Below, in pieces: positions 378-49,300 of a DNA stretch of 53,933 nucleotides. This DNA comes from Chrysochromulina tobinii (Eukaryota). Made by a program: the position numbers and the translations under genes. Each line of letters begins with the position of its first letter. Within the stretch, counting starts at the first letter, position 1. The DNA lies in the NCBI GenBank assembly GCA_001275005.1, contig JWZX01003251.1, positions 1 through 53,933 of the forward strand, written 5' to 3'. The notes beneath the pieces were generated by a model. The model did no database searches. It worked only from the letters and a program-made list of their open reading frames with translations, and was not told where the DNA came from.

Positions 378-457
378 CTAAGCATGCGCCGTGGTGTGCA
401 AGAGGGAGCTAGGGGGGGGAGACACGCAGGCAATCAGGGGCCATCAGAGGCACTCAC
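378..457 (-). other. Putative spliceosomal intron (80 nt) containing the decamer satellite
   Basis: Minus strand TCG|GTGAGTGCCTCTGATGGCCCCTGATTGCC...CATGCTTAG|GCAG. The host transcript is not identified. Confidence 0.5.
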
Positions 458-4435: not shown

Positions 4436-6152
4436 ATGCGCGAGGACTGCCTGCCCGAGCTCGTCGCAGCTCAGACCGAGATGTGCCAGATGCGTGACGA
4501 GCTTGAGGCGTATCGAAGAGGCGACCCCACCTCGAGACGCGCCGAGGCGGCTGAGAGGGAGCTGCGTGATCTCCGGGCACAGCTCGCGGCGGAGATCGCG
4601 AGCTCGGCGGAGCACTTCGAGGCGAGATCGAAGCTCAGCGACGAGATCGCCGAGCTCAGACTCCAGCTCGAAGCCGAGAAGAAGCGCTCGGCGTCGCTGC
4701 CCTCGCCTGGCGCGAGTCCAGAGGAGGAGAGCGTCAAGCAGCTCAAGAAGAGCTTGAACGAGGCGAAGGAGGAGCTCGAAGCGGCGCATCGGGCGATTCG
4801 GGCCAAGGAGGTGATTGCCTCTGAGTGCCTGCCTGAGTGCCTCGCTGAGTGCATCCCTAATTGATTTCAGGAGAGCTCGGCTCAGAAGGAAGCGGGCGTC
4901 TCATGATTGCCACGGATTGCCATTGATTGCCACTGATTGCCACTGATGAGCGCTGATTGAGCAGGAGAGCTTGGCCCAGAAGAAGGAGGGCAGCCTCCAA
5001 GCGGCCAAGGAGCATGCCGAGCTCGTCGCCCAGCACGCTGCCCTCGTGACAAAGGGCGACGAGCTCATGCGGACCGTCCGGCTGCAACGGCTCGCCGCCA
5101 AGGCTCTCGGCATGCTGTACGTCCAACGGCTGAGCTCCCTCAAGAGGCAGCTGCGGAGGATGACCGAGCGCTCGCAGGCCGTTGAGGAGATGCTCGAGGG
5201 GGCGCCCGTCGAGCGCGCGCGCCTGGTCGACGAGAATGCCAAATTGAAGCGTGACGCGGCCAGCGCCCTCGCGGCGGTTGAGCCGCTACGAAAGTCGCTC
5301 ACGCATGCAAACTCCGAGATTCGTCAGCAGGCGATGCGTCTTCAGCAGCTCCACTCAACGGCGGAGCGGCTCGAGAGCACCCGGCGTGTCAACGCTGAGC
5401 TGCGGACTACGAATGAGGAATTGCTCGAGCACGTCAGATTCCTCACGAGATCGCTCTCAGAATCGCAATCTCGCGCGGACGTGATCAAGGTCCAGCTGCT
5501 CGATGTGCAGGGCAACCACGCACGTGTCCTCGCGCGGCGGGATACGGAGCGACGGGCCCTCGAGATCCAGGTGCGCTAATGACGCCTGATGACGCCTGAT
5601 GACGCCTGATGACGCCTGATGACGCCTGATGACGCCTGATGACGCCTGATGATCCAGGTGCGCTGATGGCCTCTAAGGATCTCGGATGGCCTTGGATGGC
5701 CTCGGATGGCCTCTGATCGTCCGCATGCCCTCGAGATCGCATCGAGATCGCAGCTGGCCGAGGTGGTTTCGCGTGTGCGCGAGCATGAGAAGGCATTCCT
5801 CGGGGAGCAGCCCCTATGGCTCCTCAAGGAAATTAAAGACGCTGCCCGCGAGGCACGCGAGCCCCGGCGCGAGCGCTCACCTCGGGCCGATCTCCCGCCG
5901 CCGCTCCCGCCTTCGACGGCAACTGCCCAGACGCCATCACCGCGATGGGGCATCGCTCTGCCGACGGTGCACGCTGCTGCGATGCCTGTGCGCCCTGGCC
6001 CCACAAGGGAGGCAGCGGGGACCCCGCGCTCACGGCGGCAACTCGCGCGCGTCAAGCCGCCGCCTATCGCGGGATCCATGCCGCCGCGACAGGCGGAGGC
6101 GGCGAACGAGGCCGAACTCGGCCCCGTTGACGAGTTGCCCACCCAAGCATGA
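4436..6152 (+). CDS. Coiled-coil hypothetical protein; exons 4436-4810, 4965-5570, 5754-6152 (possible micro-exon from 4871; start may be ATG 4356 if one G is missing)
   Basis: Three heptad-rich ORFs join in frame through phase-0 GT-AG introns 4811-4964 and 5571-5753. Confidence 0.75.
4811..4964 (+). other. Decamer-satellite intron with internal acceptor (4870) and diverged copy of the downstream exon start
   Basis: GAG|GTGATTGCCTCTGAGTGCC...TTTCAG GAGAGCTCGGCTCAGAAGGAAG...(TGATTGCCAC)n...GAGCAG|GAGAGCTTGGCCCAGAAGAAGG. Confidence 0.75.
5571..5753 (+). other. Decamer-satellite intron with a duplicated donor junction
   Basis: GATCCAG|GTGCGCT occurs at 5564-5577 and 5651-5664. GACGCCTGAT x7 spans 5581-5650. 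The acceptor CGCAG|CTG at 5753 restores the frame. Confidence 0.85.
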
Positions 6153-6545
6153 GGCCGATGACGAGTACTTCGATCTTCATAACAATTTTCTTTTTAGATT
6201 TTACTTCGTTGGGAGGAGTCAGACAGCGTAGGGGCGGGGAGAGAGAACAGTCGTATACGTTTTAGACTTTTAGTCCATGGGCAAAGAAGTCGTGCAGCAC
6301 AAACTTAACGGGTACAGTCCGTTCCCTTGAGTCCGCTCGCACTCTACATTGGGTAAATGAGCCCTACATAAAACAATGACTGCACGAAACGGCCGGCGAA
6401 AACCGTGTAAAGCCCCGCCCGGGGGCCGGCGGGATGTATAGCTAATCGGAGCGGAGATTCCAAACTTATTTAGGATTTTCCGCTGAATTTCCCGACTCCG
6501 CGCATAAACTCCGCGTCGCCCTTACGACGCCCCACCCATCCGTCA

Positions 6546-7202
6546 ATGAACATCGCGGTCTCCAGCCCGCCCAGTCCGGACTCTGTGCATAGTCCATTGC
6601 CGATATTTGCCGAACACACGCTTGCCTGCGCGCACGACGGCTGCGACAAGCGCTTCTTCAGGCGAAGTGATCTCAAGAAGCACGGGGGCTTGCACACGGG
6701 CACCAAGCTATTTGCTTGCGACCACGAGGGCTGTGGCAAGAGCTTCTCGTCCTCGAGCCACCTGACGACGCACAAGCGCACGCACACCAACGACCTGCCG
6801 TACACTTGCGACCACGAGGGTTGCGCCAAGCGCTTTTCGCAAGCGAGCAACCTCCGGTCGCACATCAAGCGCACACATATGGGTGAGAGGCTATTTGCCT
6901 GCGAGTTTGAAGGCTGTGGCATGCGTTTCATGGACTCAGCCCACCATGTGGCGCACAAACGTACGCACGCGGGTGAGAAGCCATATGCATGCGACTACGA
7001 GGGCTGTGGCAAGAGCTTCTCGCAACCGAGCAATCTCAAGTCGCACCAGTGCAGGCACACTGGTGAGAGGCTGTATGCCTGCGACATCGATGGCTGCGGC
7101 AAGAACTTCAGAACGTCGAGCGACCGAGCGAACCACAGGCGCACGGACACGGACACTAAATCGTATGGCCTCGACCACGACAGGTGCGCAAAGGGCATAT
7201 AG
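6546..7202 (+). CDS. C2H2 zinc-finger protein (5 intact Cx4C fingers, 6th lacks the last His, 7th degenerate)
   Basis: Repeated C-x4-C-x12-H-x3/4-H with TGE(K/R)PY-like linkers, e.g. CDHEGCGKSFSSSSHLTTHKRTH. Confidence 0.92.
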   Translation: MNIAVSSPPSPDSVHSPLPIFAEHTLACAHDGCDKRFFRRSDLKKHGGLHTGTKLFACDHEGCGKSFSSSSHLTTHKRTHTNDLPYTCDHEGCAKRFSQASNLRSHIKRTHMGERLFACEFEGCGMRFMDSAHHVAHKRTHAGEKPYACDYEGCGKSFSQPSNLKSHQCRHTGERLYACDIDGCGKNFRTSSDRANHRRTDTDTKSYGLDHDRCAKGI

Positions 7203-7275
7203 CGGCCCTGATAGCGGTATCCGCCCTGCAGGATATGGTCCCAATAATCTCGAAGGATCAAGCCGCTCGAGAGCT

Positions 7276-7454
7276 CCAGGAGTGGCGCCGGGTGTGCCAG
7301 GAGTGGCGCCGGGTGTGCCACAAGGCGAGCCAATAAGAGACGAGCTGAAGCTGGAGCTCCCTTGAGCTCCCTTCAGCCGTGGGACGTGAGTGCCTACCAT
7401 TCGAAGCACCCGAGATCCCCATCCCAGACGAGCTGAATCTGGAGCTCCCTTGAG
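7276..7454 (+). repeat. Intergenic direct repeats: 21-bp tandem x2 and a ~29-bp dispersed pair
   Basis: CCAGGAGTGGCGCCGGGTGTG x2 at 7276-7317; AGACGAGCTGAA(G/T)CTGGAGCTCCCTTGAG at ~7338 and ~7426. Confidence 0.85.
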
Positions 7455-7989
7455 TCTCGTGTTGGTCCAACCAACGAAAGGCCCGCGCTCCTGGTCCCGA
7501 CCTGTGTGCACTCTGCGTGTGCACCTGGCGGTGCACCTCAGTGCGTCAGCGTGCGCCTGCGTGGCCGACGCCCCTCCTCAACACCTGATCCTGCGTGGTG
7601 CGTGCCCAACCAGTACCAAAGGCTACCAGTACATAGATCCGTGATATGATCGGTACCGGTAGGCTACATGCTGTTGAGTCGGCCGCGGATTCGGTCGTCG
7701 CGCGGACCCGTGCGGTGCGGGTGCGTGCGTGCGTTGCGTTGGTGTGGGTTGGGTTGGTTGCGAGGTTCGTCTACCTGGTTCGTCTGTGATATCCGTGTGC
7801 CCGAGAGGTACCGTTGGTACCCGAGTGGGTAAAAGGCACCAGGGGGAGCCGGGACACACACGTGACACACGGGCGCACACGGGACACACGGGCGCACAGC
7901 ACCAATTGCACAGCACACGGATCACACAGTCGTTAAGCTTCACTTGAATTCATACATACTTGTACGAAGATTGACGAAGTTCCCGACCC

Positions 7990-9195
7990 ATGTTTGTCAC
8001 CGACAAGGCAGCCGGAGCATCGGCGCTGTCGGGCGTGCTCAATCTGTTGAATTCGATCATCGGAGCTGGTATACTCGCGTTGCCGTTTGCATTCAAGAGC
8101 GCCGGTCTGCTGGTTGGCATAGGGTACCAAATCGTCTTCGGCTTCATGACACTGTATGGCATCGTGCTGCTGCTCGAGTCGCTGAAGTTTGCGTCCGTCC
8201 GCTCATACGAAGACTTGGCACTGTGCGCGCTGGGAAGGGCGGGATGGTACGCCTACAATTTCAGCTCCATCTTCAGCGGCTATGGCTCGTGCACTGGCTA
8301 CTTGGTGATCATCGGCGACATCCTGCCGGGGCTCCTCCAGGAGCTCGGCTATGTGCTTTCGCGCGAGTCGCTCATGTGCGCCGTCAGCGTCGTGCTCATC
8401 TTCCCTCTGTGTGCGCTGCCTGAATTCTCCGCCCTCCAGTACGCGAGTGGCCTCGCCGTCGCCATCTACGTCTGCTTCACAGTTGCCATCGTGCAACTGT
8501 ACTTCCAAGGCAACGGCGGCAGTGAGCCTCTTGACCCTCCTCCCTCGATGTTTCGAGAGGACTTTGGCGCCTTCATCTCGGTCGCGCCGCTCTCCGCGTT
8601 CGCATACCAGTGCCTGACGACCCTCTTCCCGATTTATCAGGAGCTCGCGGTGGCCACGCCCGCCCGGATGACTCTCATCTCAGCGATCGCCCTTGGGACT
8701 GCTGGAGTGATCTATTCGAGTGTGGGTGCGGCCGCGTACTTGCACTTTGGCGAGGCGACCCAAGGCGACGTGCTGTTGAACCTCGAGTCGATCGGCAGCC
8801 CAACGATGCGCATCATGCGCTTCAGCTTTGGGATCTCAATCTGCTTCACATACCCTACCATGCAGTTCGCATGCAGACGGTCGCTTGACCAGCTGCTCTT
8901 CCATTCCAAAGAAGGCAACACCCCGTACCTTCGCCTGCTCGCACTGACGGTGCTCATCGTGAGCTCGACACTATGGCTGGCGCTCTACTCCCAGAAGGTC
9001 GAGGTCGTCTTCGGGTACGCGGGCGCGATTGCCTCGACCTCGCTCCTCTTCATCCTACCACCGTCGATCGCGCTCTCGCTCCATCCGCACAAGCCGTGGT
9101 ACAACTACCTTTTCCTTCTGGCAGGGCTGGCGTGCGGCATCCTAGGCTTGCTGCAGCAGCTCGCAGAAGACGTGCAGAGTGGGGGTGAAAGCTAG
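7990..9195 (+). CDS. Amino acid transporter, AAAP/Aa_trans (SLC38/AVT-like) family
   Basis: GVLNLLNSIIGAGILALPFAFKSAG, SYEDL, AFAYQC and GDVLLNL motifs; ~11 TM segments. Confidence 0.93.
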   Translation: MFVTDKAAGASALSGVLNLLNSIIGAGILALPFAFKSAGLLVGIGYQIVFGFMTLYGIVLLLESLKFASVRSYEDLALCALGRAGWYAYNFSSIFSGYGSCTGYLVIIGDILPGLLQELGYVLSRESLMCAVSVVLIFPLCALPEFSALQYASGLAVAIYVCFTVAIVQLYFQGNGGSEPLDPPPSMFREDFGAFISVAPLSAFAYQCLTTLFPIYQELAVATPARMTLISAIALGTAGVIYSSVGAAAYLHFGEATQGDVLLNLESIGSPTMRIMRFSFGISICFTYPTMQFACRRSLDQLLFHSKEGNTPYLRLLALTVLIVSSTLWLALYSQKVEVVFGYAGAIASTSLLFILPPSIALSLHPHKPWYNYLFLLAGLACGILGLLQQLAEDVQSGGES

Positions 9196-9400
9196 GTGGA
9201 AGTTAGGGGTAGTGCTAGAACGCAAAGCGCCGACGTGGGCACATTTATGCACACACATCAAGGATGATCGCCCTCGTCGCTTTCGCCCTCGCCCTCCGAG
9301 CTCCTCCCTCACGTCGCGAGCCCCGAGGCGCGAGGGGCCACTCTCGTCGGTACCAGTTTTCAGCATTAATGCACTCCACATGTCACCACCAGTGCGCGCG

Positions 9401-10414
9401 TCAAGCCTTGCCCATCGCCAGCATGGCCACGCCGCCATACTTGAGCGGCATCGGCGCACCGCCGCCCTTGGAGGAGGATACCTCAGCCACGCGATCGAGG
9501 AAGTTCGAACCGGATCCAACCTTTATAACACCGGAGCGCAGCTTCAGACCCGCGGGCGCCGTCCCGGGCGGATCTCCGAGCTCGCGCATCGCCTGGAGTG
9601 TGTGGGTGTCGCCAAACAGGACCGTGGCGCCCGTGCGCTCCAGCACTTCCACCGTCACCGTCGCGCGCTGTGCCGGCACGCCGCAGCCGCGAATGCCTCC
9701 GACGGCCGGTAACACCACGCTCGCGCCTGCGGTCAAAGCGCTCGAGACTGCGGACCCTATGCCAAATGCATGCATGAGCGTGATGGAGGCACACACGACG
9801 TCGGCACTCGTGAGGTGCAGCTTGGTCGCCGCCTGCCGGCCGAGCGTGATCGCCTCTCCGTGCGTCAGCGCGGAGCCGCCATACACTCCGAGCAGGCTAC
9901 CAGCGACGGCAACAGGTGAGCCCCCACGGGGAGGGCAATGCAAGAGGAGCTCGCGGAAATCGACGGTTGCTGAGGCTGGACGAGGGCCGGCGTCACCTGC
10001 CTCGAGGCTCACGATCGGCATCCGATGATGAGCAATCGCCTCCGTGTGCTCCAGCCAGGCCGCGGTTGCGTCCACGCAGATGATGCCGCAAACGTCGTAC
10101 TTCTCAAGCAGTGCATCGAGGGCGGCGGCGTCCTTGGGCGGCGTCATGATGGCTGCCCCGACGTGTGAAAGAGCAAGCTGCAGCAGAATATTTTCCGCCA
10201 CGTTGGGGACGTCGGAGAGAGCTACCGAGCCTGGCTTGTAGCCGATGTCTTCCAAGCCCGAAGCGAGGCAGCGCGCTTTGAGATCAAGTTCCTCGTACGT
10301 GTAAGACACGTTCTGCTGCGGCGCGATCAAGGCTGGCGCTCTCTGATTCGCGCTGATCACGAGGGACGCGAGGCTCGAGCCCGCGCTGGAGGCGAATCGC
10401 CTCGACAGGCGCAT
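9401..10414 (-). CDS. Truncated AMP-binding (acyl-CoA synthetase-like) protein with probable mitochondrial presequence
   Basis: ATG 10414 MRLSRRFASSAG; YTYEELDLKARCLASGLEDIGYKPG and VVCASITLMHAFGIG...AGASVVLP motifs. Lacks the canonical TSGTTGxPKG loop and the C-terminal domain. Confidence 0.8.
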   Translation of the reverse strand: MRLSRRFASSAGSSLASLVISANQRAPALIAPQQNVSYTYEELDLKARCLASGLEDIGYKPGSVALSDVPNVAENILLQLALSHVGAAIMTPPKDAAALDALLEKYDVCGIICVDATAAWLEHTEAIAHHRMPIVSLEAGDAGPRPASATVDFRELLLHCPPRGGSPVAVAGSLLGVYGGSALTHGEAITLGRQAATKLHLTSADVVCASITLMHAFGIGSAVSSALTAGASVVLPAVGGIRGCGVPAQRATVTVEVLERTGATVLFGDTHTLQAMRELGDPPGTAPAGLKLRSGVIKVGSGSNFLDRVAEVSSSKGGGAPMPLKYGGVAMLAMGKA

Positions 10415-10580
10415 TCGGAGGCGCGAGAGTCGAGAGGTGTGAACACACAAGTTCGTCAAAAACTTTCGATTACCCACCGGAACACCACGGGTCCTTCTTG
10501 TGTGTGTCCACACATGGTTCAATGCATAAATCGTGATCTCAGACTTACGTGCAAGCGCTACCCGCCGGGAAAAGACACTC

Positions 10581-11759
10581 TCACATGGGCGGTGGCAGCC
10601 CGTTGCCCTGCGCGATGGACGCCATGAAGTTGATCTTCTCGGCCTCCTTGGCGCACCACACCATGCCCTCGTCCGAATAAACCTCATCGCGGTCCATACA
10701 GAAGAGGATCTGGCCGTCGGCGCCGTCGTACGCCTCGACATCGGCCTTGAGCACGTACATGTCTGAGATCTTGCCCTTCTCCTTGATCTCGGACAGGATC
10801 ATCTCCTTGGGCACCAAAGCGTACGGGAAGTCCTTTGTGAGTGTGCTGAGCCCAAAGTACTCTTTGGACGTCGGGCCGAGGAAGACAGAACGTGCGGCGC
10901 CCTTGACACGGGGCGGTATGGGGCCCTCGGGCATGGGGGGGCGAGGCTTCTCCACCTTCGGCTCGGGCGGCTTCTCGCCGCGCGCGAGTGCCTCCGCTAC
11001 CAGCCGCTCCTGCTCCGCCTTGGCCGCCGCCTCGGCCGCCTCCCTCGCCTTCTCCGCCTCAATGCGCGCCGCCTCCTCCGCCGCCGCCTTCGCCTCGGCG
11101 GCGATGCGCTTCGCTTCTTCCTTCTTGGCTTTCCGTTTGGCCGCGCGCTCCTCCTTGAGCGCCAACAGCCGCGCCGCCTCCGCATCCGCCGCCGCCTTCA
11201 CCGCCGCCGCCTCCTCCGCAATGCGCGCCGCCTCGGCCGCTGCCTTGGCCGCCTTGATCTTGGCCGTGTAAGGATCGTCATCGAGGGCCTTGGACCAGGG
11301 CACGATGTCGGGCGTGACCACGCACGGCGACGTGTTCTTCCAGAACCCTTCCGGAGAGAAGTACACCACACCCTTGATCACCTGGCCCTCGTACTCCTGG
11401 GTGCACGACGTCTTGATCAACGGGTTGGCGGCGTACACCTCGGGCGCGGTTGGCCGGTTGCAGAACGGGTCGTGCGGCGGGTAGTAGTCGTAGAAGATGG
11501 CCGTGCCCACCTTGTCCAGCTTCTCCTCAGACGCGGCCGCGAGCTTGTTTGCTGGGTCGCGCGGGTCATCTTTGTAGAGCACGAGATTGTCGATCGGGTC
11601 GCCATGCCGTGCCTTGATGAAGGTCTCGAGCTCGGCGATCGACAAATACGGCAGCTGTACCTCGAGCTGGAAGTCCATCGTCTTCCACGGCACGCATTTG
11701 ATCTGCACCACCTTGACCTCAGGCGGCGGCGGTGGCGGCTCGGGTGGAGGCTTGGGCAT
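10581..11759 (-). CDS. Hypothetical protein: ubiquitin-like N-terminus, Ala/Glu/Lys helix, C-terminal region resembling the WDR63/IC140 N-terminal domain
   Basis: 392-aa ORF with strong GC3 bias. Domain resemblance is recalled by eye. Confidence 0.75.
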   Translation of the reverse strand: MPKPPPEPPPPPPEVKVVQIKCVPWKTMDFQLEVQLPYLSIAELETFIKARHGDPIDNLVLYKDDPRDPANKLAAASEEKLDKVGTAIFYDYYPPHDPFCNRPTAPEVYAANPLIKTSCTQEYEGQVIKGVVYFSPEGFWKNTSPCVVTPDIVPWSKALDDDPYTAKIKAAKAAAEAARIAEEAAAVKAAADAEAARLLALKEERAAKRKAKKEEAKRIAAEAKAAAEEAARIEAEKAREAAEAAAKAEQERLVAEALARGEKPPEPKVEKPRPPMPEGPIPPRVKGAARSVFLGPTSKEYFGLSTLTKDFPYALVPKEMILSEIKEKGKISDMYVLKADVEAYDGADGQILFCMDRDEVYSDEGMVWCAKEAEKINFMASIAQGNGLPPPM

Positions 11760-12219
11760 TTCAGCAACGACGAGCGTCGTAAGGAGCGCCCGATAAGGCG
11801 CTCCGAGAACCCCGTCAGACGGACCCGAGGCGTCTGATCACACGTCAGGACCCCCCTGTTACAGTATGATGATCTCTGTTCCGTGAAAATGTCGGGCGCC
11901 GCGCGCGCCGCGCGCGGAGCGGCGGGGGCGGTAGCACAGTCCGCATGTTGGCATGAGTCCTTATGAGTCCGGGCACCGGAGCGCAAGCAGCCGATAAGGC
12001 CATAACCGGCGCCCATTTCGGTCCATTTCGGCGCTTTCGCGGCGAGACTCCAATTATTCTCCAGTTACCCAGAGCACCTCTCCGTACCGGACCCGAGGCG
12101 TCACACTTCAGCCCTACTTCAGCCCCACCCTTGCACCCACCCCTATCATGAAGATGTTCTCTATCTTCCGTGTACATGCATGTGACGAGGTCGGGAGCTC
12201 TCTGGACTCGTCTCCTGTG

Positions 12220-14515
12220 CTACGACTCGCCGGTTTTGACTAGCACGCACCCGACCTCAGCGAGCGCGCGCGCCACGTCGAGTCGCTGAGCGTCCGAGTC
12301 GCAGGGAAGCTTGGCGACGCTCACAAACTTGGGGTACGACGCGAGCACGTGCTCGAGCGCGGGCGCCGCCTCGATGGCAAAATCAATCTTATCGGGCTCA
12401 TCCCTCTCGCGGTAGATGCGCGTGTTCTGGGCGCTGTGGTACAGGGCGGCGACCTCGAGGCCGTCCGCGCCGCCTCCCTCGACAGCTAGGCGCGCGACGC
12501 GTCGGGTGGTGAGCCGAATCTTGCTCGCGAGGGTCACCTGATTGCGGCAATCAGCGGCAATCAGATGCAATCAGATGCAATCAGAGGCAATCAGGTGAGC
12601 CGAATCTTGCTCGCGAGGGTCACCTGATTGCGGCAATCAGCGGCAATCAGATGCAATCAGAGGCAATCAGGTGAGCCGAATCTTGCTCGCGAGGGTCACC
12701 TGATTGCGGCATTCAGCGGCAATCAGCGGCAATCAGCGGCAATCAGCGGCAATCAGGTGAGCCGGATCTTGCTCGCGAGAGGCACCTCCTCCGGCGAAGC
12801 CGGCAGGCGCGACGCGTCGGCGGGCGCGTGTGCGATCGGTAGGCGCTCATGAATGTAACGCTGGCAGCAGAACATATCGGCCATACCATCGAGCGGCATG
12901 TGCTCGACAAGGTCGTGCAGCATTGCACGCAGGCGCGCCTGAATCGCCGCTCGGCGCAGCGCGTGCTCCGTCACCTCCGGCGCCGCGCCTGCAAGGGGCA
13001 GCCCAAAGGCGACTCATCAGTGGCAATCAATGGCCATCAGTGGCCATCAGTGGCCATCAGTGGCCATCAGTGGCCATCATTGGCAATTACCTGCAGGGGG
13101 CAGCCCAAAGGCGACTCATCAGTGGCAATCAGTGGCCATCAGAGGCAATCAATGGCCATCAGTGGCCATCAGTGGCCATCAGTGGCCATCAGTGGCCATC
13201 AGTGGCCATTACCTGCAGGGGGCAGCCCAAAGGCGACTCTCGCACGCTCGAGCTCCGCTGGGTCGAAAGGCAGGTGGCCATTCGCGGCGTCCTCGGCGGC
13301 GGTGGCGGCGGCGTGGGCAGCAGCGGCGGCGGCGTCGCCCTCCTCGTCGTTGGCATGCAGCAGCCCAATCCGATCGAAGAGGTCAGGTGGAAGGGTTTCG
13401 CGCCAACTCGGCTGGGCCACCGTCAGGGATTCCATGGCACCGAAGACGCCGAACTCAAGGAGATCCCTCCACGTGTGCTGACGACCGAGTGAGGCGGTGA
13501 CGTGGAGCGACGGGTGCGTCTGCGCGGCCGCCTGGTGCACGAAGCCGCGTGGAAGGTACAGCAGGTCGCCGGGACGCAAGGTCACCTGCCCGATCAGGCG
13601 GCCGAGCTCGTCGGGGAGCAGATTGGGGCTCGAGAAGCGCGGCAGCGCCTCATCGGAGGTGCGGGGGGCGTAGACACGCCACTCCTTGGTGCCCTCGAGC
13701 TGCAGCACGAGCGCGTCGATGTCGTCCCAGTGCGGTGCGAACCCCTGGCTGCCCGCCGGCGTGAGGTACGCATTCGCGCCCGCCATACACCCGAAGAGCT
13801 CCTCAAGCTGAGAGAGCATCCTCCATAGAGGGTCCGACCGACGCTGGGGCCACGAGAAGCGGATGGAGCAGCCCTCGGCGTAGCGCTTCCACACCTCCTC
13901 GGGCGTCGCGATCCCTTCGCCGTTGTGCGTCGTGCGCACGCCCCCTTCATACCGCGCAGCGTCCACCTCGTCCGTCCAGCGCATCCCTCCCTCACGGATT
14001 TGGCGCTCCATCTCGGCGCGCGAGAACCAGCCGTCGTAGTAGGTGCGATCGGTGCGCGCCACGTGCAGCGGCCGTCGGCCGTAGATCTCCTTTAGGAACG
14101 TCTCCGCACTCACCGGCCCGACGAGCCACGCGAGAAACTTTAGAGCCTTGTCGGAACGGTCGGGCATCGAGGCGATCTCCGGGCCCGTCTGGCCAATGAA
14201 GGCGCGGTCGTCGGTGACTGTCTCGAGCATCTCGGAGACTTCTGGCGCGGTCTCGATACCCCAGGCACGATCGGTGGAGGACGGCTCCTTATCCTGCTGC
14301 AGCTGCTGATGTGCCTTCTTCTTCTTGCCCTTGGGAGCAGCGGCGGCGGCGGCATCGCCGGATGGTGAGGACGTCGTCGTCACGGCGGACGGTGCCGCCA
14401 CTAGCCCTGGGGGTGGCGCCTCCTCATAGTCTTCGTCCCGCGAGCGCTTGAGCTCCTTCTTTGGCTTCTTTGGCTTCGGCGCCGGGGCGGGCAAGATCGG
14501 CGATGGCTTCGGCAT
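12220..14515 (-). CDS. RIOX1: Ribosomal oxygenase 1 / NO66 (JmjC, Cupin_4); exons 14515-13213, 12988-12786, 12537-12220
   Basis: GANAYLTPAGSQGFAPHWDDIDALVLQLEGTKEWRVY, LRPGDLLYLPRGFVHQA, SLHVT and YIHERLP motifs, plus a C-terminal ALEHVLASYPKFVSVAKLP. Introns are phase 1 and phase 0 and keep the frame. Confidence 0.9.
12538..12785 (-). other. 248-nt intron made of three units (86, 76, 86 nt), each a 30-nt copy of the downstream exon plus decamer satellite ending in CAG
   Basis: GGTGAGCCGAATCTTGCTCGCGAGGGTCAC (+ strand) at 12508 (exon), 12594, 12670 and 12756 (27/30 match), separated by (GGCAATCAGC)n-type repeats. Confidence 0.88.
12989..13212 (-). other. 224-nt intron made of two units (122, 102 nt), each GTAAT plus decamer satellite plus a 27-nt copy of the upstream exon end
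   Basis: CTGCAGGGGGCAGCCCAAAGGCGACTC (+ strand) at 13213 (exon), 13091 and 12989 (1 mismatch), separated by (TGGCCATCAG)n. Confidence 0.9.
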
Positions 14516-22651: not shown

Positions 22652-22971
22652 GGTAAGGAGCGGTCGGCCTGCGCCTCGGATCGCTGCTGCCCCGCGCTAA
22701 GCCCTGCGCCACGTGCACGAAGCGCGCGGCGGCGCGCTGAGCGCACGACGGGTGGTTGGCCTGTTTGCGAACCCGCTACGCCCGTTAGCGAGAAAATTGC
22801 ATGCCATCTCTTCCACGCACCCTCACACACCAACCCCGTTTCTCAGCGGGGTTGTAGACTCACTGAGCTCTGGGGTGTGTCTGATAACTGTCTGATGACG
22901 GCTGATGACAATCGAGAGTGGGCGTGAAGCTTTTGAGCGAGCGCTTCTTCGGAAGGCTCACGCCGGGGAGG

Positions 22972-29522: not shown

Positions 29523-30894
29523 TTACTGGTCGTCCTCCTTGTCGTAGTAGGTCATGGTTTGCGCCGCGGCGCCTCCGCCGCCCATTGCTGCTATCCTCTT
29601 GAGGGCGCCGAAGCGGGCGGTTGCCTTGGCACTCTTCGCCGCGGCGACCTCGTGGTCTGCGGCGACGACGCCGTTGGTGAGCTTCTCGGCCTTAGCCAGA
29701 TGCTCTCGCATGTTGAACAGGGTCGCGTCGGCGATGTTGCGCAACGCATCCTCGGTGAGAAACGCCTGGTGGCCCGTTACAATGACATTCGGATAATTGA
29801 CGAGCTGCTGGAAAACATCGTCCTCCAAGACCTCTCCGGTGTGGTCTGTGAAGAAGAGGGACCAGGTGTGAAGAAGAGGGACCAGTTGGCACCAGGCTTA
29901 GGGTGAGGCTCGGGGCGTAGTGTGCAAAGGCCAGGGGTCGGGTGGGGGTGTGAAGAGGTGACCACACACCATGAAAGAAGAGGCCAGACTCCTCCTCGTA
30001 CACGTCGAGCCCTAAGGCGCCGATGGTCTTGTTTTTGAGGCCCGCAATCGCCGCCTTCGTATCTAGCAGCCCGCCGCGCGACGTGTTGATGATCATCACT
30101 CCCTTCTTCATCAGAGCGATGCGCGCCTCGTTGATGCAGTGGTGCGTCTCCTTGGTCATCGGCGCATGCAGCGAGATGATGTCGCATCGTTTGCACAGCT
30201 CGTCGAGCGTGACGTACTCGACGCCCTTGTCCGCGAGCTCCTTGTTCACGCTTCGCGATTGCGCGATGACTTTGCAACCAAAGCCAAGGAAGATGTTCGC
30301 CGCGATCACACCAATATTGCCCGTGCCGATGATGCCCACCGTGCGCCCGTGCATGTCAAAGCCGGTCAGACCACGCAGGCTGAAATTGCCGTCCCGGTTC
30401 CGCAAGTATGCCTTGTGAATCTTGCGGTTCAAGGTCATGCAGAGAGCCACCGCGTGCTCTGCGACCGCGTACGGCGAGTATGCCGGCACACGAGCCACGG
30501 AGATCTTGTTGACCGCTGCCGCGGCCAGGTCCACATTGTTGAAGCCGGCGCAGCGAAGCAGGATGAGTCGGCACGACGTGTATCGGCCTAGCCAGTCGAG
30601 CACTTCCTTGGACACGCCGTCGTTTACAAACACGCACACGGCCGCACAGTCTTGAGCCAGCTTCACGGTCTGGGGGTTGAGCTCCGCTTCGATGTAGCGC
30701 ATGGCGTACGGCAGTTTGCCATCGGGTTCGGCCGCCTTTTCAGCAGCAAGCGCGGCCTCAAAAGCAGCCTCCTCGTACTCTCTCGCTGAGAAAACCGCGA
30801 TGATCGGCTGCTCCGTGGTGGAATCTCCGTGCTCCTTTGCTTTGGCCACCTCCTCGCGCAGCTTCTCGGGTGCAGATGGTTTATCTGAGTCCAT
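29523..30894 (-). CDS. ldhA: D-lactate dehydrogenase (LdhA-like D-2-hydroxyacid dehydrogenase); exons 30894-29970 and 29845-29523
   Basis: AVCVFVND, LRCAGFNNVDL, RVPAYSPYAVAEHA, GIIGTGNIG, INTSRGGL, LDVYEEE and, after the intron, PNVIVTGHQAFLT. Confidence 0.92.
29846..29969 (-). other. 124-nt phase-1 intron whose 3' end is a tandem echo of the upstream exon end
   Basis: CATG|GTGTGT...CTGGTCCCTCTTCTTCACAC CTGGTCCCTCTTCTTCACAG|AC; splicing restores FFH-D-HTGEVLEDDVF. Confidence 0.88.
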
Positions 30895-37347: not shown

Positions 37348-40300
37348 ATGCTGGCGCCCCTTGACCCGAACCAGGCCGGCTTTGGGTTCTCACCCAAGCC
37401 GCAGTATTCCACAGGTGACACGCCCCTCTGGGAGAATCCCATCTTCGCCGACGTCGTGCTCGGCCGCAGCCTCGATGACGGCAAGAGGGGCTTGCCGCCT
37501 CCGCCGAAGCTGACGGTTGGGTCACTCGTCGAGTCGATCAACCTGGTCATGTTCCAGACCCGATTTCTCTTTGAGGACCCGCAGACCGCGGGCGCGCTCA
37601 AGCAGACGCTCGGCAGGATCTACTCGGCGCTCGAGCGCGCGGCCGGGATGACCAAAACCTTTTCGGCCATTTCGGACATGTCAGGCTTCTTCGAGCTGCT
37701 CACGACCTTTGTGGCGCAGGTGAAGACGCTCACGCCTGGTGCGAGCATCATCGTGCCCGGCGGCTTCCAGGAGGGCTCGCTCAAGCGCGGCACGCACTCG
37801 CTCATGATGTACGTGCTCCACTGCGACTCATTCGAGGAGTTCACGCTCGCCATCTGCTCGACGGGCGACGGGCTCGAGTACCACCCGGCGCGGATCGACC
37901 CAGCGACGGGCGCGACGCAGTACAATTCGCCGCTGCTCCTGCGCAAGATCCCCGCGCACAAGATCCGTGACGGCTCAGTCTGGTTCGTCCTGCTGCGCGC
38001 CGCCCTCTTCCCCGACGCGAAGTACACGAGCGCGCTGCTCTACCAGACCGTGTACCCCTTCCTCAACAACCGGCCCATCCTCGCGAACCTGAGCTCGGTG
38101 GAAGCGACCGGTGGCGCGCAGCCCTCTCCTCCACCCTCCCTCCAGCAGGCCGGGCGCCCGCCGGTGCCGCCGATCCCCGCGCGTTGGCTCACGCCGCCGG
38201 CGACCGGCGACCCCTACGGACACGAGCTCGTCATGCTCGCGGCGACGGTGGCGCTCCAGCTCGCGGCGAGCGGCCAGTTTGGCGCGATGCCCCAGTACGG
38301 CGGCGGCTTCGGCGCCCCCTTTGGTGCCCCCCCGGCCGGCGGCGCGCCGCCTCTTGTGCCCTCGTACTCGTCCGACGGGGTTGAGCTGCTGCTTAAGCAG
38401 CAGCTTTTGAATCTGGGCGCGATGGACCTCAGGATGGCTCTCGAGAAGCACGGCAGTGTACCCGTCTCGGCCATCGAGCTCCTCTCCCGCGCCGCACGGC
38501 GCCTCTCCGCCTCGTCGCCGCGTCTCGCCTCTGGCGCGGCCACGCTGGCGCCATCGGACTTGCACGCGTTGCAGGGGGCTGTGGAGCGACTCGATGCGCA
38601 GCTGAACGCCGCCAAGGCCGCGGCGAACCAGCGGATGCCGCTGCCGCCGCCCGCGTCGCCTGAGCTCAAGGGCTCGGCGCTCTTCCCACTGCTCGATGAC
38701 GTGGCCGCCTCGCCGAACGTTGAGAATCTGGCGGGTGACGCGTACGAGCCACCGATCGTGATGCCGGTCGAGCTCACGGCGATCCCAGAGACGGTGGCCA
38801 ACTTTGCGGAGGTCTCGAACGCGCTGCAAAGGGCGTCCGAGGTGTGCACGATCCTCGCCAACCAGCGCGAGCTCGTGGCCGATTCGTACGCGCTCCGCGC
38901 CTCGTTGCTTGGTCACCTCTTCCTACGCGTGCTGCCGCTGCCGCTGCCCATCGGGCGTGCGGACCGCAAGATGCGCTGCTTCTGGGCCAAGTCCGGGCTG
39001 AAGATCACGCACGACACGCAAGCCGAGATCCTCCGTTGGCTCTTTGTGCTCGCGCGCCACTACTCTGCGGCCTCGCTCTCCATCCCCCTCGCGCCTCAAG
39101 CCGACGCGACGCGAATGTTGGTCTTCGCGGCCATCGTCGCGATCGCGGACGCGGTGCTGCGCCTGCGCGCGTGCGATGTGCCCTCGCACCTCTCGCTGCA
39201 CTACGCGGGCGAGAATGAGGGGCCGTCTAAGCCGTTTGCCCTCGAGATGCGCCACCTCGAGATCGAGACCGAGCGCGCGCAGTTCCCGTACCCGCACCTG
39301 GCCGCCTCGCGCACCATCCTTCTCGACTACTTCCGCTCGTGCTCGGTTGCGGCGTCTCCGGATCGGCACATCTTCCGCTTCGAGCGCACGATGGGGCTGG
39401 GCGAGGGCGAGCGCCAGCTGCTCACGCAGCTCTGCGCGCAGCTCGCCTTCCTTCGCACCGACAAGCACCTGTCCGCGTACCTCTCGAACGAAGATCCGAG
39501 CCTCGCCGAGCTCTACCCGGAACTGCTCGCTTTCCGCGACATCGTGTACCTGTGCAAGCTCATGACAGCGCCGTCTGCGGACAACCTGCCCGAGCTGCGC
39601 GCATGGACGCCCGCTGACGCGCGCCTCTCGTGGCGCTTCAAGGAGGGCACCCCCCCGGAGGAGCCCAAGAAGGGGGGCAGCAAGAAGGCGGCCTCGACCC
39701 CCCCCTCACCGGTGAGTTCATCGTGACCGGCTTCGGCGCCGAGATGAAGTCGATGACGTGGGTCGATTCCACAGGCGAGTACGCGGCCGCCAAGAATAAG
39801 TCGTTCCTCGACCGTCTGCTCGGCAAGGGTGGCTTCCGTCCGCGCCTGCCTCCCTCGTCCGCGGAGGCGAGCGTCCTCGCGGGCGCCAAGGTCGACACCG
39901 AGGATGACGTGCTGCACCTCCGCCACCTGCCGGATTTCGGGGGGGCGCTGCGCGCCTCGGATGTGGAGTACATGCTTCAGGCGCTGCTCGCTCCCTATTT
40001 GCGCGTGCCGCTGCTGCTTCGGTTCTTCGCCGACCCCATGCGCACTTCGGCCCTCGCAAAGCCCGAGCTGCAGCAGATGCTCGATGCGGCGCTGTACGAG
40101 CCCGGCGAGTGGCATCCCGATGTGCCCAAGGTGGCGCCGACGACGGTGCCCACCATGGATCGCTCGGTGCTCGCGACGCCCGCGGGCTTGCTCTTCAATG
40201 AGCTCACGCACTCGCCCGCCGCCTCGGTCGCCGCGATCGTCACCATCGTCGAGAACGCACTCGACCTCGATGCTGGTCGTTACGTCAAGGCGGGCTCGTC

Positions 40301-46300: not shown

Positions 46301-49300
46301 CGAGGAGGCGGGCCCCATGCTCAAGCGCCCCTCGTCGATCATGTGGATTCAGTGGATGGGTGCCGTAGGGCGCAAGGTCCGAGGCACTAAGAAGCTCGAG
46401 GATAATGAAACCGCGGCTGGACGGCTCCAACAAGCGGCCGCCGGCGCGGCGGGCACGACGGCGCCCGCCACGGCGAGGAAGGCGTCCAAGTCGATCGACC
46501 TCAACAAGGACGGCATGGTGGACTCGATGGAGCGTGGGCACGCGCTCGACGCCGTCGTGGGCGTCGACGTGTCGGAGGGCTCGACGGACATTTTGCCGTT
46601 GCACCTGCTCGATGTGAGCGACGTCGAGTACATGGCGATGCTCTACGAGCTGCTCAGCCGGAAGCCTGAGCCGATCAAGTTTTATCTCGAGGAGCTCGTG
46701 TTCCCCGACACGACGGCGCATCAGCCGATGAAGCTCTCCGCCAACGGCCAGGATGTGGGCGGCGCGATGCTCTTCTCGCGACGCATCGGCTTCTCGGGAA
46801 CCCCTTCGGGGCTGCTGCCACTCGAGATGGGCGACTGCGTCTACTCGATGGGAGACGACGCCAAGATGCTCAAAACGCTCACCGACCCGCTCATCGTCTC
46901 GCAGCAGTTCATGCCGGCCGCGTGGGACGTGCCGACGCTCCTCGAGGCCGTGGTCGCGCATCAGCCGCCCGCGCATGCCCTCATCGACACGGGCGCGCTC
47001 GTGACCGGCATGTCGAACCTGGATGTGGCCCACTTCTTGCTCAAACGACTGCCCGCGGACAAGTACGATGGCGTCGTGTACCTCGAGCCGGGCGGGCACA
47101 AGAAGATCCTGCTGCGCGGCACCGCGGGCGCCTCCTCGACGATGGACATGGAGCGGTGCGGACTTCCCAAGGAGCGCCGCTTTTCGTTCTTTGACCAGGT
47201 GCACACGACGGGCATGGACATTCCCCAGGGCGCGAGTGCGTGCGCCATCCTGACGCTCGGGAAGGACATGGTGTGGCGTGACTACGCCCAGGGCGCGTAC
47301 CGCATGCGCGGCATCGGCAAAGGGCAGACGATCCTCCTCTTCGTCATCCCTGAGGTGCAGCGGCTCATGGCGTCCGAGACGGCCCTGGGCGCAGGCACCA
47401 CGCGCGACGTGCGTGCGGCGCAGATCGCGGCTCTCCCGGAGCAAGAGCGACGTCGACAGGAGCTCGAAGCTGTGGCGAGCTGGCTCGTCATCAACTCGAT
47501 GAAGAGTGAGCGCGTGCAGTTCGAGCTCTGGTGCCTGCACTGCTCCCAGAATGTGTGGCGCAAGAAGGCAAAGAATGGTCTCGTCGCGGGCCACGCCAAC
47601 TTTTCGGATGCGCGCGAGGGCAAGGGCGCGTCGGCTTTGGAGCGGCGCATGCTCGAAGTCTTCCGGGAGGGTGTCGAGCGGGACATTAGCAACTCGGTGC
47701 CTGTGGCCACGGACACGCGCCAGACGATCGCTTCGCTCGCGCAGCAATACGCCGAGCTGTGCGACGAGATGCACGAGATCAAGGCCATTGAGTCTGTGCA
47801 GGCGATGCTCGCCGGGTACGCGCCCGAGCTTGACGTCCCTACCGAGTCGCACACCGAGAAGGCCAACGAAGCCGCCGCCTTCGACCAAGAGCAGGAGCAA
47901 GAGCAAGAGCAAGGTACGATCGGCTCCTTGCCGCCTTCTCTGTTCCTGCCTTATTTCTCTGTGCTCGCCTTCTCTGTGCTCGCCTGCTCTGTGCTCGCCT
48001 GTTCTGTGCCTGCCTGCTCTGTGCTCGCCTGCTCTGCTATGCCTGCTCTGCGCTGCCTGCTCTTCGAGCGCACCCTGCACCACGGATGATGAGCAATGTC
48101 CTCCAAGATCGCTACGGCCAATCGGATGCTGCCCCCCTCGGGCGGCCGACGAAGAAGGGCGTGTGCTCTGACGAACCTGACGAACCTGACGAGAAGAAGG
48201 GCGTTTGCTCTGACGGCTGGCCGCCCGTCTTCTTGTCACCCTTGCTCTTGACGCACCCCCCTGAGCCCACCTTCCCGCCTGTGCCTCCCGCCACGCAGAG
48301 CAAGAGAAGGAGCAGCAGCAGGAGCAGCAGAAGGAGCAGGAGCAGGAACAGGAGCAGGAGGACGAGGAGTATAAGAAGGAGAAGTACACGCGCGAGGAGG
48401 AGTTTGGCAAGGTGTGGGAGCTCGCGGCGCTGGCCCAGAACCCGCCCAAGCAGGACGTGCTCGGCTTCTTCCAGGTGTCCGAGTTCTCGGTGCACCGCTC
48501 GTTCCTCAACCAAAAGGGGCCGCTGCGCTGGCCCAATTACCTGCAGTTCTCGTCCGACCACACGCACCCACGCTGGCGCTTCCAAGGGCACCATCGGCTC
48601 AAGAACATAATCGCCGTCATGGAGTGGGCGCCCGACGTGGCTGCGGCTGCGAAGAGTAGCTCAACCTACACTGGCGGCGCCGCCGGAGGCGGCGCGGCGA
48701 TGGCGGCGCTCACCGACGGGCAACGCCAGCGGCTCTCCCGCGTCTTCCAGATGTATGTGCCGAGTGGCTGAAGGACGTTTTGAGTGCCACTGAGTGAGCT
48801 TCTGAGTGCCTCCGATGGCCTCCCTCGTCAGGTACGATGCCGAGGGCCGAGGCGCGCTCGGCGAGCAGCGGCTGCGCACCATCCTGTCCGACATGGGTCT
48901 TGAGCCCGAGACGGTCGCGGCCGAGAAGCTCGCAATCGAGGCGCTCTTTAGCAGCCTGCGCGCCTCAGGCGCCATGAACTGCGACCCGAGCAACGGCGAG
49001 CTCCGTGTGCCCAGCATGGAGTTCCTGCGCGTCATGCAGGCGCAGGAGTTCCTCGTGGGCGAGATGGGCCGGTACTGGGTCGCCCTCTCGCTCCGTGAGG
49101 CGGAGACGCTGCGCGGTGCGCTCCACGCGGCCATGGACGGCGAGACGGCGCTCGTGCCCAATAGCAAGGTGGCCGTTGGGCTGCGCATCGGCGACCTGCT
49201 GCTCGATGCCGTGGGCGGCGCAAAGGGCGACACGGACGGGCGACCCGACGACTACCACCAACCGCCGCGCCTGCAGCTGCAGAGCGCCGTGCAGGCGTTC

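What the first reader, a model, noticed from the sequence alone, without database searches (positions are those of the whole stretch)
5581..13210. The 10-nt satellite is always sense-oriented and combines branch point, near-donor and stops in all frames
Seen: in both + and - genes the transcript reads CTGATTGCC(A/G/T), CTGATGGCCA, CTGAGTGCCT or CTGATGACGC. Most units contain CTGAT, which fits the CTRAY branch consensus. One C>G change gives GTGATT/GTGAGT, which are the actual donors at 4811 and 457. A 10-nt period puts TGA in all three frames every three units. Inference: the repeat is a self-sufficient splicing signal with a built-in NMD fail-safe, which would explain its tolerance inside genes.
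Basis: partly seen in the sequence, partly recalled or inferred. Interest (0 to 1): 0.7.

Follow-up and report, generated by a model that had tools for sequence, protein, structure and literature searches.

The report
Satellite filler that makes new introns
In the alga Chrysochromulina tobinii a 10-letter repeat fills many spliced introns that are bracketed by a 10-37-letter copy of the gene's own sequence, which likely means the repeat is inserted at staggered DNA breaks and likely creates new introns when it lands in the gene's own direction, while the few backwards copies stay in the messenger RNA.

Summary
The window is from Chrysochromulina tobinii. The decamer arrays at 5581-13210 fill three introns (two confirmed by RNA, one by protein homology), all sense-oriented. 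Across 251 array regions the bias is strong but not absolute: 62 sense to 1 antisense where both flanks were called; 29 of 29 Pfam hits sense. Seven antisense arrays sit in open frames; one is kept in RNA while sense arrays of the same gene are spliced. The repeat is not self-sufficient: it gives the donor in 5 of 44 introns, and its common sense units hold no AG. Relatives appear to lack five such introns. Best reading: repeat insertion with target duplication creates introns, and selection yields the orientation. Branch-point use and NMD are untested. The scan noted this footprint before on other DNA (e1-2577349).

The parts
4437..6152 (+). Host gene A (part of NCBI model Ctob_001371, coiled-coil-like, no family known); start codon uncertain
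   Evidence: spliced frame open to the stop at 6150-6152; exon 2 is 100% identical to P0143, Chrysochromulina tobinii, on a 53933-nt contig
4811..4964 (+). Intron 1 (154 nt; outside the finding's range): donor GTGATT, arrays 4811-4854 and 4903-4952
   Evidence: GT..AG joint in RNA runs X13, X14, X15, not in DNA run X2; arrays
4868..4897 (+). Decayed copy, inside intron 1, of the acceptor and first 27 nt of the next exon (original 4962-4991)
5571..5753 (+). Intron 2 (183 nt): donor GTGCGC, decamer array 5586-5712, last CTRAY A at -38
   Evidence: joint in 3 of 3 RNA runs
5727..5738 (+). Copy of the upstream exon end (5556-5567) near the acceptor of intron 2; a second copy of the donor region (5564-5581) lies at 5651-5668
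12220..14515 (-). Host gene B, NO66/RIOX1-like JmjC oxygenase, 607 aa when both introns are removed
12538..12785 (-). Intron 3 (248 nt): three units of [32-nt copy of the exon junction + decamer array + inverted unit]; donor from the copy, last CTRAY A at -14
   Evidence: joint in RNA run X14 only; protein alignment; copies at 12756-12787, 12670-12701, 12594-12625, 12508-12539
12538..12547 (+). Inverted decamer unit that forms the ATCAG acceptor of intron 3 (also at 12624-12633 and 12700-12709)
12989..13212 (-). Intron 4 (224 nt): two units of [decamer array + 28-nt copy of the upstream exon end]; acceptor from the copy, donor = G of the copy + T of the repeat; last CTRAY A at -29
   Evidence: no RNA joint seen; removal restores alignment to NO66 relatives; copies at 13212-13239, 13090-13117, 12988-13015
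428..457 (-). Three-unit array; orientation to a transcript unresolved
   Evidence: no joint listed
22881..22911 (+). Three degenerate units just upstream of a long + strand frame; role unresolved
48753..48831 (+). Predicted intron with four degenerate units (48768-48821), sense

Best explanation
The decamer is the stereotyped filler of spliced, mostly sense-oriented introns that are often bracketed by a 10-37-nt copy of host sequence, and it is likely inserted at staggered DNA breaks, in either direction, likely creating a new intron when it lands sense. Steps: (1) Shown: arrays lie in spliced GT-AG introns, and many are flanked by a direct repeat of host sequence. (2) Inferred: one event duplicates the target and places a run of units between the copies. 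(3) Shown in sequence: removing insert plus one copy at GT..AG restores the host sequence; the splice sites come from the copy, from an inverted terminal unit (CCCTCATCAG, GCAATCAG) or, less often, from the repeat's start. (4) Inferred: sense units give an AG-free body with many CTGAY branch points. (5) Inferred from shown cases: sense inserts carry stops in all frames and survive in exons only if spliced; antisense inserts have no stop, one YAG per unit and no CTGAY, and survive only as rare in-frame additions. That filter likely makes the orientation bias. (6) Shown as strain polymorphism: the unit [copy + array] changes in number afterwards. The enzyme and template are unknown.
For: Direct repeat across the array at score >=12 in 65 of 205 regions against 0.24% of 2968 swapped pairs; lengths 10-37 nt (one nested case 54), median 19, at score >=10. 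Exact GT-AG restoration in 40 of 65 on the repeat strand, 4 of 65 on the other, mean 5.5 (max 13) with random targets. Copies differ at 51 of 1484 bases, 34 of 65 perfect. Orientation: 62 sense, 1 antisense, 1 mixed with both flanks called; 97 to 13 with one flank; 77 uncalled (model right in 69 of 70 and 62 of 63 held-out pieces); 29 of 29 Pfam hits on the repeat strand among 222 same-strand and 228 opposite-strand frames. Locus L039 (WS/DGAT-like gene): four clean GT..AG joints and one blurred joint over the five sense introns, while the antisense array 1405-1444 is covered without a joint by contigs of 4 of 4 RNA runs. Seven antisense arrays lie in open frames with a copy offset divisible by 3; these show the process acting on plain exon DNA. 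Relatives' frames run through both NO66 positions (P0002; for intron 3 also the P0008 cluster, on contigs up to 38 kb) and the three positions of a mercuric-reductase-like gene (e.g. P0154, P0159, P0164, P0176, P0185 on 12-24-kb contigs). A 56-nt unit differs in number between L023 and L086.
Against: No intron-less allele was found in close strains: 14 of 15 listed members of the NO66 cluster read into intron 4, and the 15th, the C. parva model, carries three copies of the exon-end peptide; no presence/absence difference in 6 locus pairs. The intron-less relatives are distant (50-72% amino-acid identity), I saw only their proteins, and that their calls are unspliced is inferred from the NO66 cluster. 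140 of 205 regions show no copy at score >=12. The splice junction lies within 4 nt of an edge of the copy in 33 of 44 cases, against 14.8 expected if uniform; random insertion plus selection does not plainly explain this. A same-side control also gave repeats in 50 of 399 windows, so short duplications are common near arrays. No excess microhomology at 3' junctions. The last unit keeps CTRAY no better than middle units (124 of 182 against 1142 of 1532). The antisense cases were picked partly by open frames, so their 3n offsets are not independent; RNA contigs over the L039 antisense array carry no splice joint in the same record and could include unspliced RNA or DNA. The loci are a capped sample chosen by a near-perfect pattern.
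Confidence: 0.62

Rival explanations
1. Old introns remodelled: the positions predate the repeat; the decamer grew by slippage inside existing introns, and breaks in them were repaired on an intron-less template (cDNA or allele), copying a piece of exon in from the junction.
For: The junction sits at an edge of the copy in 33 of 44 cases, with donor-side (18) and acceptor-side (15) types about equal and interior cases few, as this model predicts. Many events are nested at existing junctions (introns 1, 2; L039). 140 of 205 regions have no detectable copy.
Against: Antisense inserts with target copies lie inside exons with no intron. Some copies span exon end plus the existing donor (L039 2784-2993, L077), which needs an intron-bearing template. 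Relatives appear to lack five tested positions.
Confidence: 0.18
2. One reading: the repeat is a self-sufficient splice signal (branch point, near-donor, stops) kept inside genes because it splices itself out and NMD removes failures.
For: 73% of units fit CTRAY; the fourth position (A) is the most constant (97%); nearest CTRAY A lies a median 23 nt before the AG in 42 of 44 introns; donor from a C>G unit at 4811 and in 5 of 44; stops in three frames in 41 of 44.
Against: Common sense units have no AG; most donors and half of the acceptors come from the duplicated host sequence. Antisense arrays exist and are not spliced. The view does not explain the duplications. Stops follow from TGA within CTGAY.
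Confidence: 0.08
3. The exon copies and repeat-filled introns are assembly artefacts at a high-copy repeat.
For: The repeat has summed depth about 7000 against about 35 for single-copy contigs, and two chimeric-looking contigs exist (L052, L135).
Against: Copies differ by point changes in 31 of 65 cases; the same structures occur in independent assemblies (L014/L059/L107, L023/L086) and in the C. parva model; RNA removes them at GT..AG; DNA contigs run through intron 1 with no differences.
Confidence: 0.03

Closest known systems
Intron gain by staggered double-strand-break repair in Daphnia pulex (PMC4202315; passages read)
   Same: New introns carry a direct repeat of the adjacent exon end at the far end of the intron, and show nested, repeated events.
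   Different: Daphnia exon-intron repeats are 4-12 bp; here 10-37 nt. Here the filler is one genome-wide decamer family with a shared 3' end; no shared filler was described in the passages I read. Daphnia gains were shown by population polymorphism, which I could not show.
Introners / introner-like elements (bioRxiv 10.1101/2022.06.06.494994, passages; bioRxiv 10.1101/2020.10.14.339549, part 1 of 4)
   Same: Insert plus target duplication; one or both splice sites recruited from the duplication; mRNA restored. A marine Chrysochromulina MAG has an introner family with 4-bp duplications.
   Different: The duplications named there are short and fixed per family (4 or 8 nt) and members are alike end to end. 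Here the duplication is long and variable, the body is a variable satellite run, and there are no paired terminal inverted repeats. The 2022 pipeline removed low-complexity families.
Intron creation by tandem duplication of AG|GT-containing exon sequence (Hellsten et al. 2011, as cited in bioRxiv 10.1101/051292, part 1 of 2 read)
   Same: Both splice sites can come from two copies of exon sequence.
   Different: Here foreign repeat sequence lies between the copies, and the junction is 6 nt or more inside the copy on both sides in only 7 of 44 cases.
NMD-enabled intron gain in Drosophila (PMC2809761; abstract and outline)
   Same: New introns hold premature stops, which may hide weak splicing from selection.
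   Different: A known general idea, not a property special to this repeat; untested here.
10-11-bp intronic tandem repeats of Emiliania huxleyi (Read et al. 2013; recalled, paper not held)
   Same: As recalled: about 10-bp repeats enriched in haptophyte introns with strand bias.
   Different: I recall no report of target duplications or intron creation there; not checked.

Membership tests
Introner / introner-like element | Family of introns alike from end to end | tested here: not met
   Shared units and a shared 3' end (CCCTCATCAG at the first downstream YAG in 44 of 217 regions), but 5' ends, lengths (72-246 nt, 5th-95th percentile) and unit variants vary
Introner / introner-like element | Short target duplication of fixed length, or none | tested here: not met
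   10-37 nt, no modal length
Introner / introner-like element | Terminal inverted repeats (in many families) | tested here: not met
   An inverted unit marks the 3' end only: [CT]TCATCAG in 56 of 217 downstream flanks, and in 1 of 217 upstream flanks read on the other strand
Introner / introner-like element | Splicing restores the pre-insertion mRNA using sites from the insert or duplication | tested here: met
   40 of 65 in sequence; RNA joint for intron 3
Introner / introner-like element | Position absent from orthologues | tested here: inconclusive
   Continuous frames in distant relatives at five positions; proteins only
Staggered-break intron gain (Daphnia type) | [quoted passage not shown] | tested here: met
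Staggered-break intron gain (Daphnia type) | Nested secondary insertions or duplications | tested here: met
   introns 1-4 and L039
Staggered-break intron gain (Daphnia type) | Presence/absence polymorphism in populations | tested here: inconclusive
   none in 15 listed cluster members or 6 locus pairs
Target-primed reverse transcription product (SINE/LINE-tail type; features recalled) | Variable-length target duplication | tested here: met
Target-primed reverse transcription product (SINE/LINE-tail type; features recalled) | Fixed 3' end with variable 5' truncation | tested here: inconclusive
   ATCAG/ATTAG end in 15 of 44 introns, in 0 of 7 antisense inserts
Target-primed reverse transcription product (SINE/LINE-tail type; features recalled) | Partner element encoding reverse transcriptase and endonuclease | not testable with these tools
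   no whole genome held
U2-type spliceosomal intron | GT..AG ends removed from RNA | tested here: met
U2-type spliceosomal intron | Branch adenosine mapped in a CTRAY motif | not testable with these tools
   only contigs, no lariat reads; motif present at -9 to -38 in introns 1-4

The most novel reading that the evidence does not exclude
An active intron factory of a kind not yet described: a reverse transcriptase or repair polymerase copies excised introns (or a small RNA of decamer units ending in CCCTCATCAG) into staggered nicks, so that a satellite without transposon ends spreads as ready-made spliceosomal introns. The exact intron ends at the edge of the duplication (33 of 44) would then reflect the ends of the RNA template, and a large share of this alga's introns would be recent products.
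Probability: 0.22. Interest if true: 0.85.

Novelty: new variant of a known kind. Interest (0 to 1): 0.6.

Why it matters
How new spliceosomal introns arise is still open, and few genomes show the process while it runs. Here a culturable alga appears to carry many young introns with a legible footprint: long target copies, a common filler, and failed (antisense, exon-retained) events as a natural control. Published introner screens removed low-complexity families, so this route may be undercounted. It also warns annotators: internal exon copies are read as micro-exons (the C. parva NO66 model has a tripled peptide).

Tried and rejected
No whole genome was held and the metagenome records were not searchable, so intronic against intergenic frequency was not measured genome-wide. 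Automated intron boundaries by coding score got several RNA-known boundaries wrong; I used that call only for a rough strand tally (125 sense, 14 antisense, 15 ambiguous, 42 none of 196; several antisense calls look false) and took boundaries from the duplication geometry instead. Local templating (introns of one locus more alike): weak, not significant (p 0.09; 21 of 300 permutations reached the value). Junction microhomology: no excess. Special conservation of the last unit: not seen, and confounded by edge truncation. Viral carrier: 0 hits for the array, 1 hit for the terminal motif in a chimeric-looking contig. Prokaryote genomes: 9 scattered single matches, not examined further. Literature searches listed no paper on this decamer or on long target copies in Chrysochromulina introns; the library lacks most subscription papers, and supplements of the introner preprints (family lists) were not seen and may bear on novelty.
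Full report
Source and anatomy. Exon 2 of the gene at 4437-6152 is identical to Ctob_001371 of Chrysochromulina tobinii on a 53933-nt contig, so the window is that haptophyte's DNA. Eleven decamer arrays lie in the window. Within the finding's range they fill three introns: 5571-5753 (+), 12538-12785 (-) and 12989-13212 (-). RNA contigs skip 5571-5753 and the neighbouring 4811-4964 in 3 of 3 RNA runs and 12538-12785 in 1 of 3; the DNA run shows none of these joints. No joint was listed for 12989-13212, but removing it and 12538-12785 gives a 607-aa NO66/RIOX1-like protein that aligns across both junctions with relatives.

The observation. The units, their excess over chance, the sense reading in these introns, the donor at 4811 and the stops in three frames hold. 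The donor at 457 is unproven: no joint was listed, and the array lies just past the stop of a + strand frame. To test 'always sense' I took 134 metagenome loci (a capped sample), merged them with the window into 251 distinct array regions, and called the coding strand of the flanks with a codon model that was right in 69 of 70 and 62 of 63 held-out pieces. With both flanks called: 62 sense, 1 antisense, 1 mixed; with one flank: 97 and 13; 77 uncalled. Of 450 flanking frames scanned (of 763; 222 same strand, 228 opposite), all 29 Pfam hits were on the repeat strand. The bias is strong. It is not absolute: seven antisense arrays lie in open frames with a copy offset divisible by three (L003, L014, L019, L021, L039, L069, L110; they were picked partly by open frames, and in L003 and L110 native protein repeats may blur the offset). 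In L039, a WS/DGAT-like gene, RNA shows four clean GT..AG joints and one blurred joint over five sense introns, while contigs of 4 of 4 runs cover the antisense array without a joint.

Each of the four window introns holds a copy of flanking exon, including the splice site. Intron 4 is two units of array plus the last 28 nt of the upstream exon; intron 3 is three units of a 32-nt junction copy plus array; introns 1 and 2 hold decayed or nested copies. This is general: 65 of 205 regions with long enough flanks have a direct repeat across the array at score >=12, against 0.24% of swapped pairs. A same-side control gave 50 of 399, so short duplications are common near arrays in any case. In 40 of the 65, a GT..AG cut removes the insert and one copy exactly; the opposite strand allows this in 4, and random targets in 5.5 on average. 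Four more fit GC-AG (10 on the opposite strand, so that class is weak); the counts out of 44 below include them. Copies differ at 3.4% of bases and 34 of 65 are perfect (biased by the score cut), which points to recent events. A second repeat built on CTGAC shows the same footprint in L055.

Where the splice signals come from. Among the 44 exact introns the donor is a C>G decamer in 5 and lies well inside the copy in 26; the acceptor comes from the copy in 22 and from an ATCAG/ATTAG end in 15. That end is an inverted unit: CCCTCATCAG precedes the first downstream YAG in 44 of 217 regions, and intron 3 ends in a perfect inverted unit. Pure sense repeats have stops in all frames and, in 7 of 8 variants, no AG; pure antisense repeats have no stop and one YAG per unit. 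Array regions hold 210 YAG on the sense strand against 763 in shuffles and 2231 on the other strand. The nearest CTRAY adenosine lies a median 23 nt before the AG, which fits a branch point but does not show it; the last unit is not better kept than middle ones.

Are the introns new? Relatives have continuous frames at both NO66 positions (P0002, 64% over the query exon; for intron 3 also the P0008 cluster on contigs up to 38 kb) and at three positions of a mercuric-reductase-like gene (several on 12-24-kb contigs). That such calls are unspliced is inferred from 14 of 15 listed NO66 cluster members that stop inside intron 4. These relatives are distant and I saw no DNA. No empty-site allele was found in close strains; what varies is the number of units (L023 against L086; three exon-end copies in the C. 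parva model).

Mechanism. Most likely (0.62): staggered breaks are filled with a run of the repeat, duplicating 10-37 nt of target. Sense inserts in exons are lost unless spliced; antisense inserts survive only in frame in tolerant regions, and inside introns would add acceptors. Selection then gives the orientation, and unequal exchange between the copies adds units. Shown: location, splicing, duplication, both orientations. Inferred: insertion as one event, branch-point use, selection, any role of NMD. Unexplained: the junction lies within 4 nt of an edge of the copy in 33 of 44 cases (14.8 expected). This fits remodelling of older introns (0.18) or an RNA template with exact intron ends (the novel case, 0.22, a sub-case of the best reading). 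Tests for local templating and microhomology were negative.

Known relatives. It works like Daphnia's staggered-break intron gain (PMC4202315, passages: repeats of 4-12 bp) and like introners in recruiting splice sites from the duplication (bioRxiv 2022.06.06.494994, passages; bioRxiv 2020.10.14.339549, part 1 of 4). It fails introner membership on end-to-end likeness and fixed short duplication; the 2022 screen filtered out low-complexity families. The NMD idea is in print for Drosophila (PMC2809761, abstract). The C. tobin genome paper (PMC4580454, passages) and the Diacronema paper (PMC8379373, passages) do not mention the repeat in the passages seen. I recall 10-11-bp strand-biased intronic repeats in Emiliania huxleyi (Read et al. 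2013; not held), which would lower the novelty of the orientation alone.

Verdict. Observation partly confirmed; interpretation partly supported. The real feature is a repeat-filled, duplication-flanked intron family that likely marks ongoing intron creation: a new variant of a known kind, interest 0.6.

Noticed in passing
window 47914-48298 (+); L055 1461-1579: A second repeat built on CTGAC (CTGACGAAC type) sits in introns; in L055 it has the same exon-end duplication. The window intron also holds a 15-nt repeat and an internal duplication.
   Followed up: partly
window 37357-52229 (+): A gene of about 14 kb with two apparent one-base frameshifts in G or C runs (near 39680 and 51820), probably assembly errors; not checked against reads.
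   Followed up: no
window 6546-7210 (+): Array of 90-nt C2H2 zinc-finger-like repeats (label recalled); DNA and RNA contigs show many differences there, suggesting paralogues.
   Followed up: no
window about 29845-29950 (-): Likely intron without the decamer but with a 20-nt direct repeat near its 3' end, in a 2-hydroxyacid-dehydrogenase-like gene (label recalled).
   Followed up: no
L052 1070-1109: Four antisense units inside what looks like a bacterial IS5-type transposase frame (recalled motif); local slippage of a native 10-mer or an assembly chimera.
   Followed up: partly
L135 (IMG/VR contig) about 340: AT-rich phage-like sequence joined to algal intron sequence at a repeat unit; likely a chimeric contig.
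   Followed up: partly
L010 330-436: Array apparently antisense, about 35 nt past a stop codon, so possibly in a 3' UTR; unit number differs in L054.
   Followed up: partly
P0133 (C. parva NO66 model): The annotation reads the internal exon copies as micro-exons, tripling a 7-8-residue peptide; whether such exons are ever used is untested.
   Followed up: no
L061 469-999; L041 2888-3478: Families TctC and DUF1501 (mostly bacterial, as recalled) lie next to decamer arrays; if these genes came from bacteria their introns must be gains.
   Followed up: no
L055 about 2296-2325: Two extra residues against all relatives just after the second intron, possibly a scar of an imprecise duplication.
   Followed up: no
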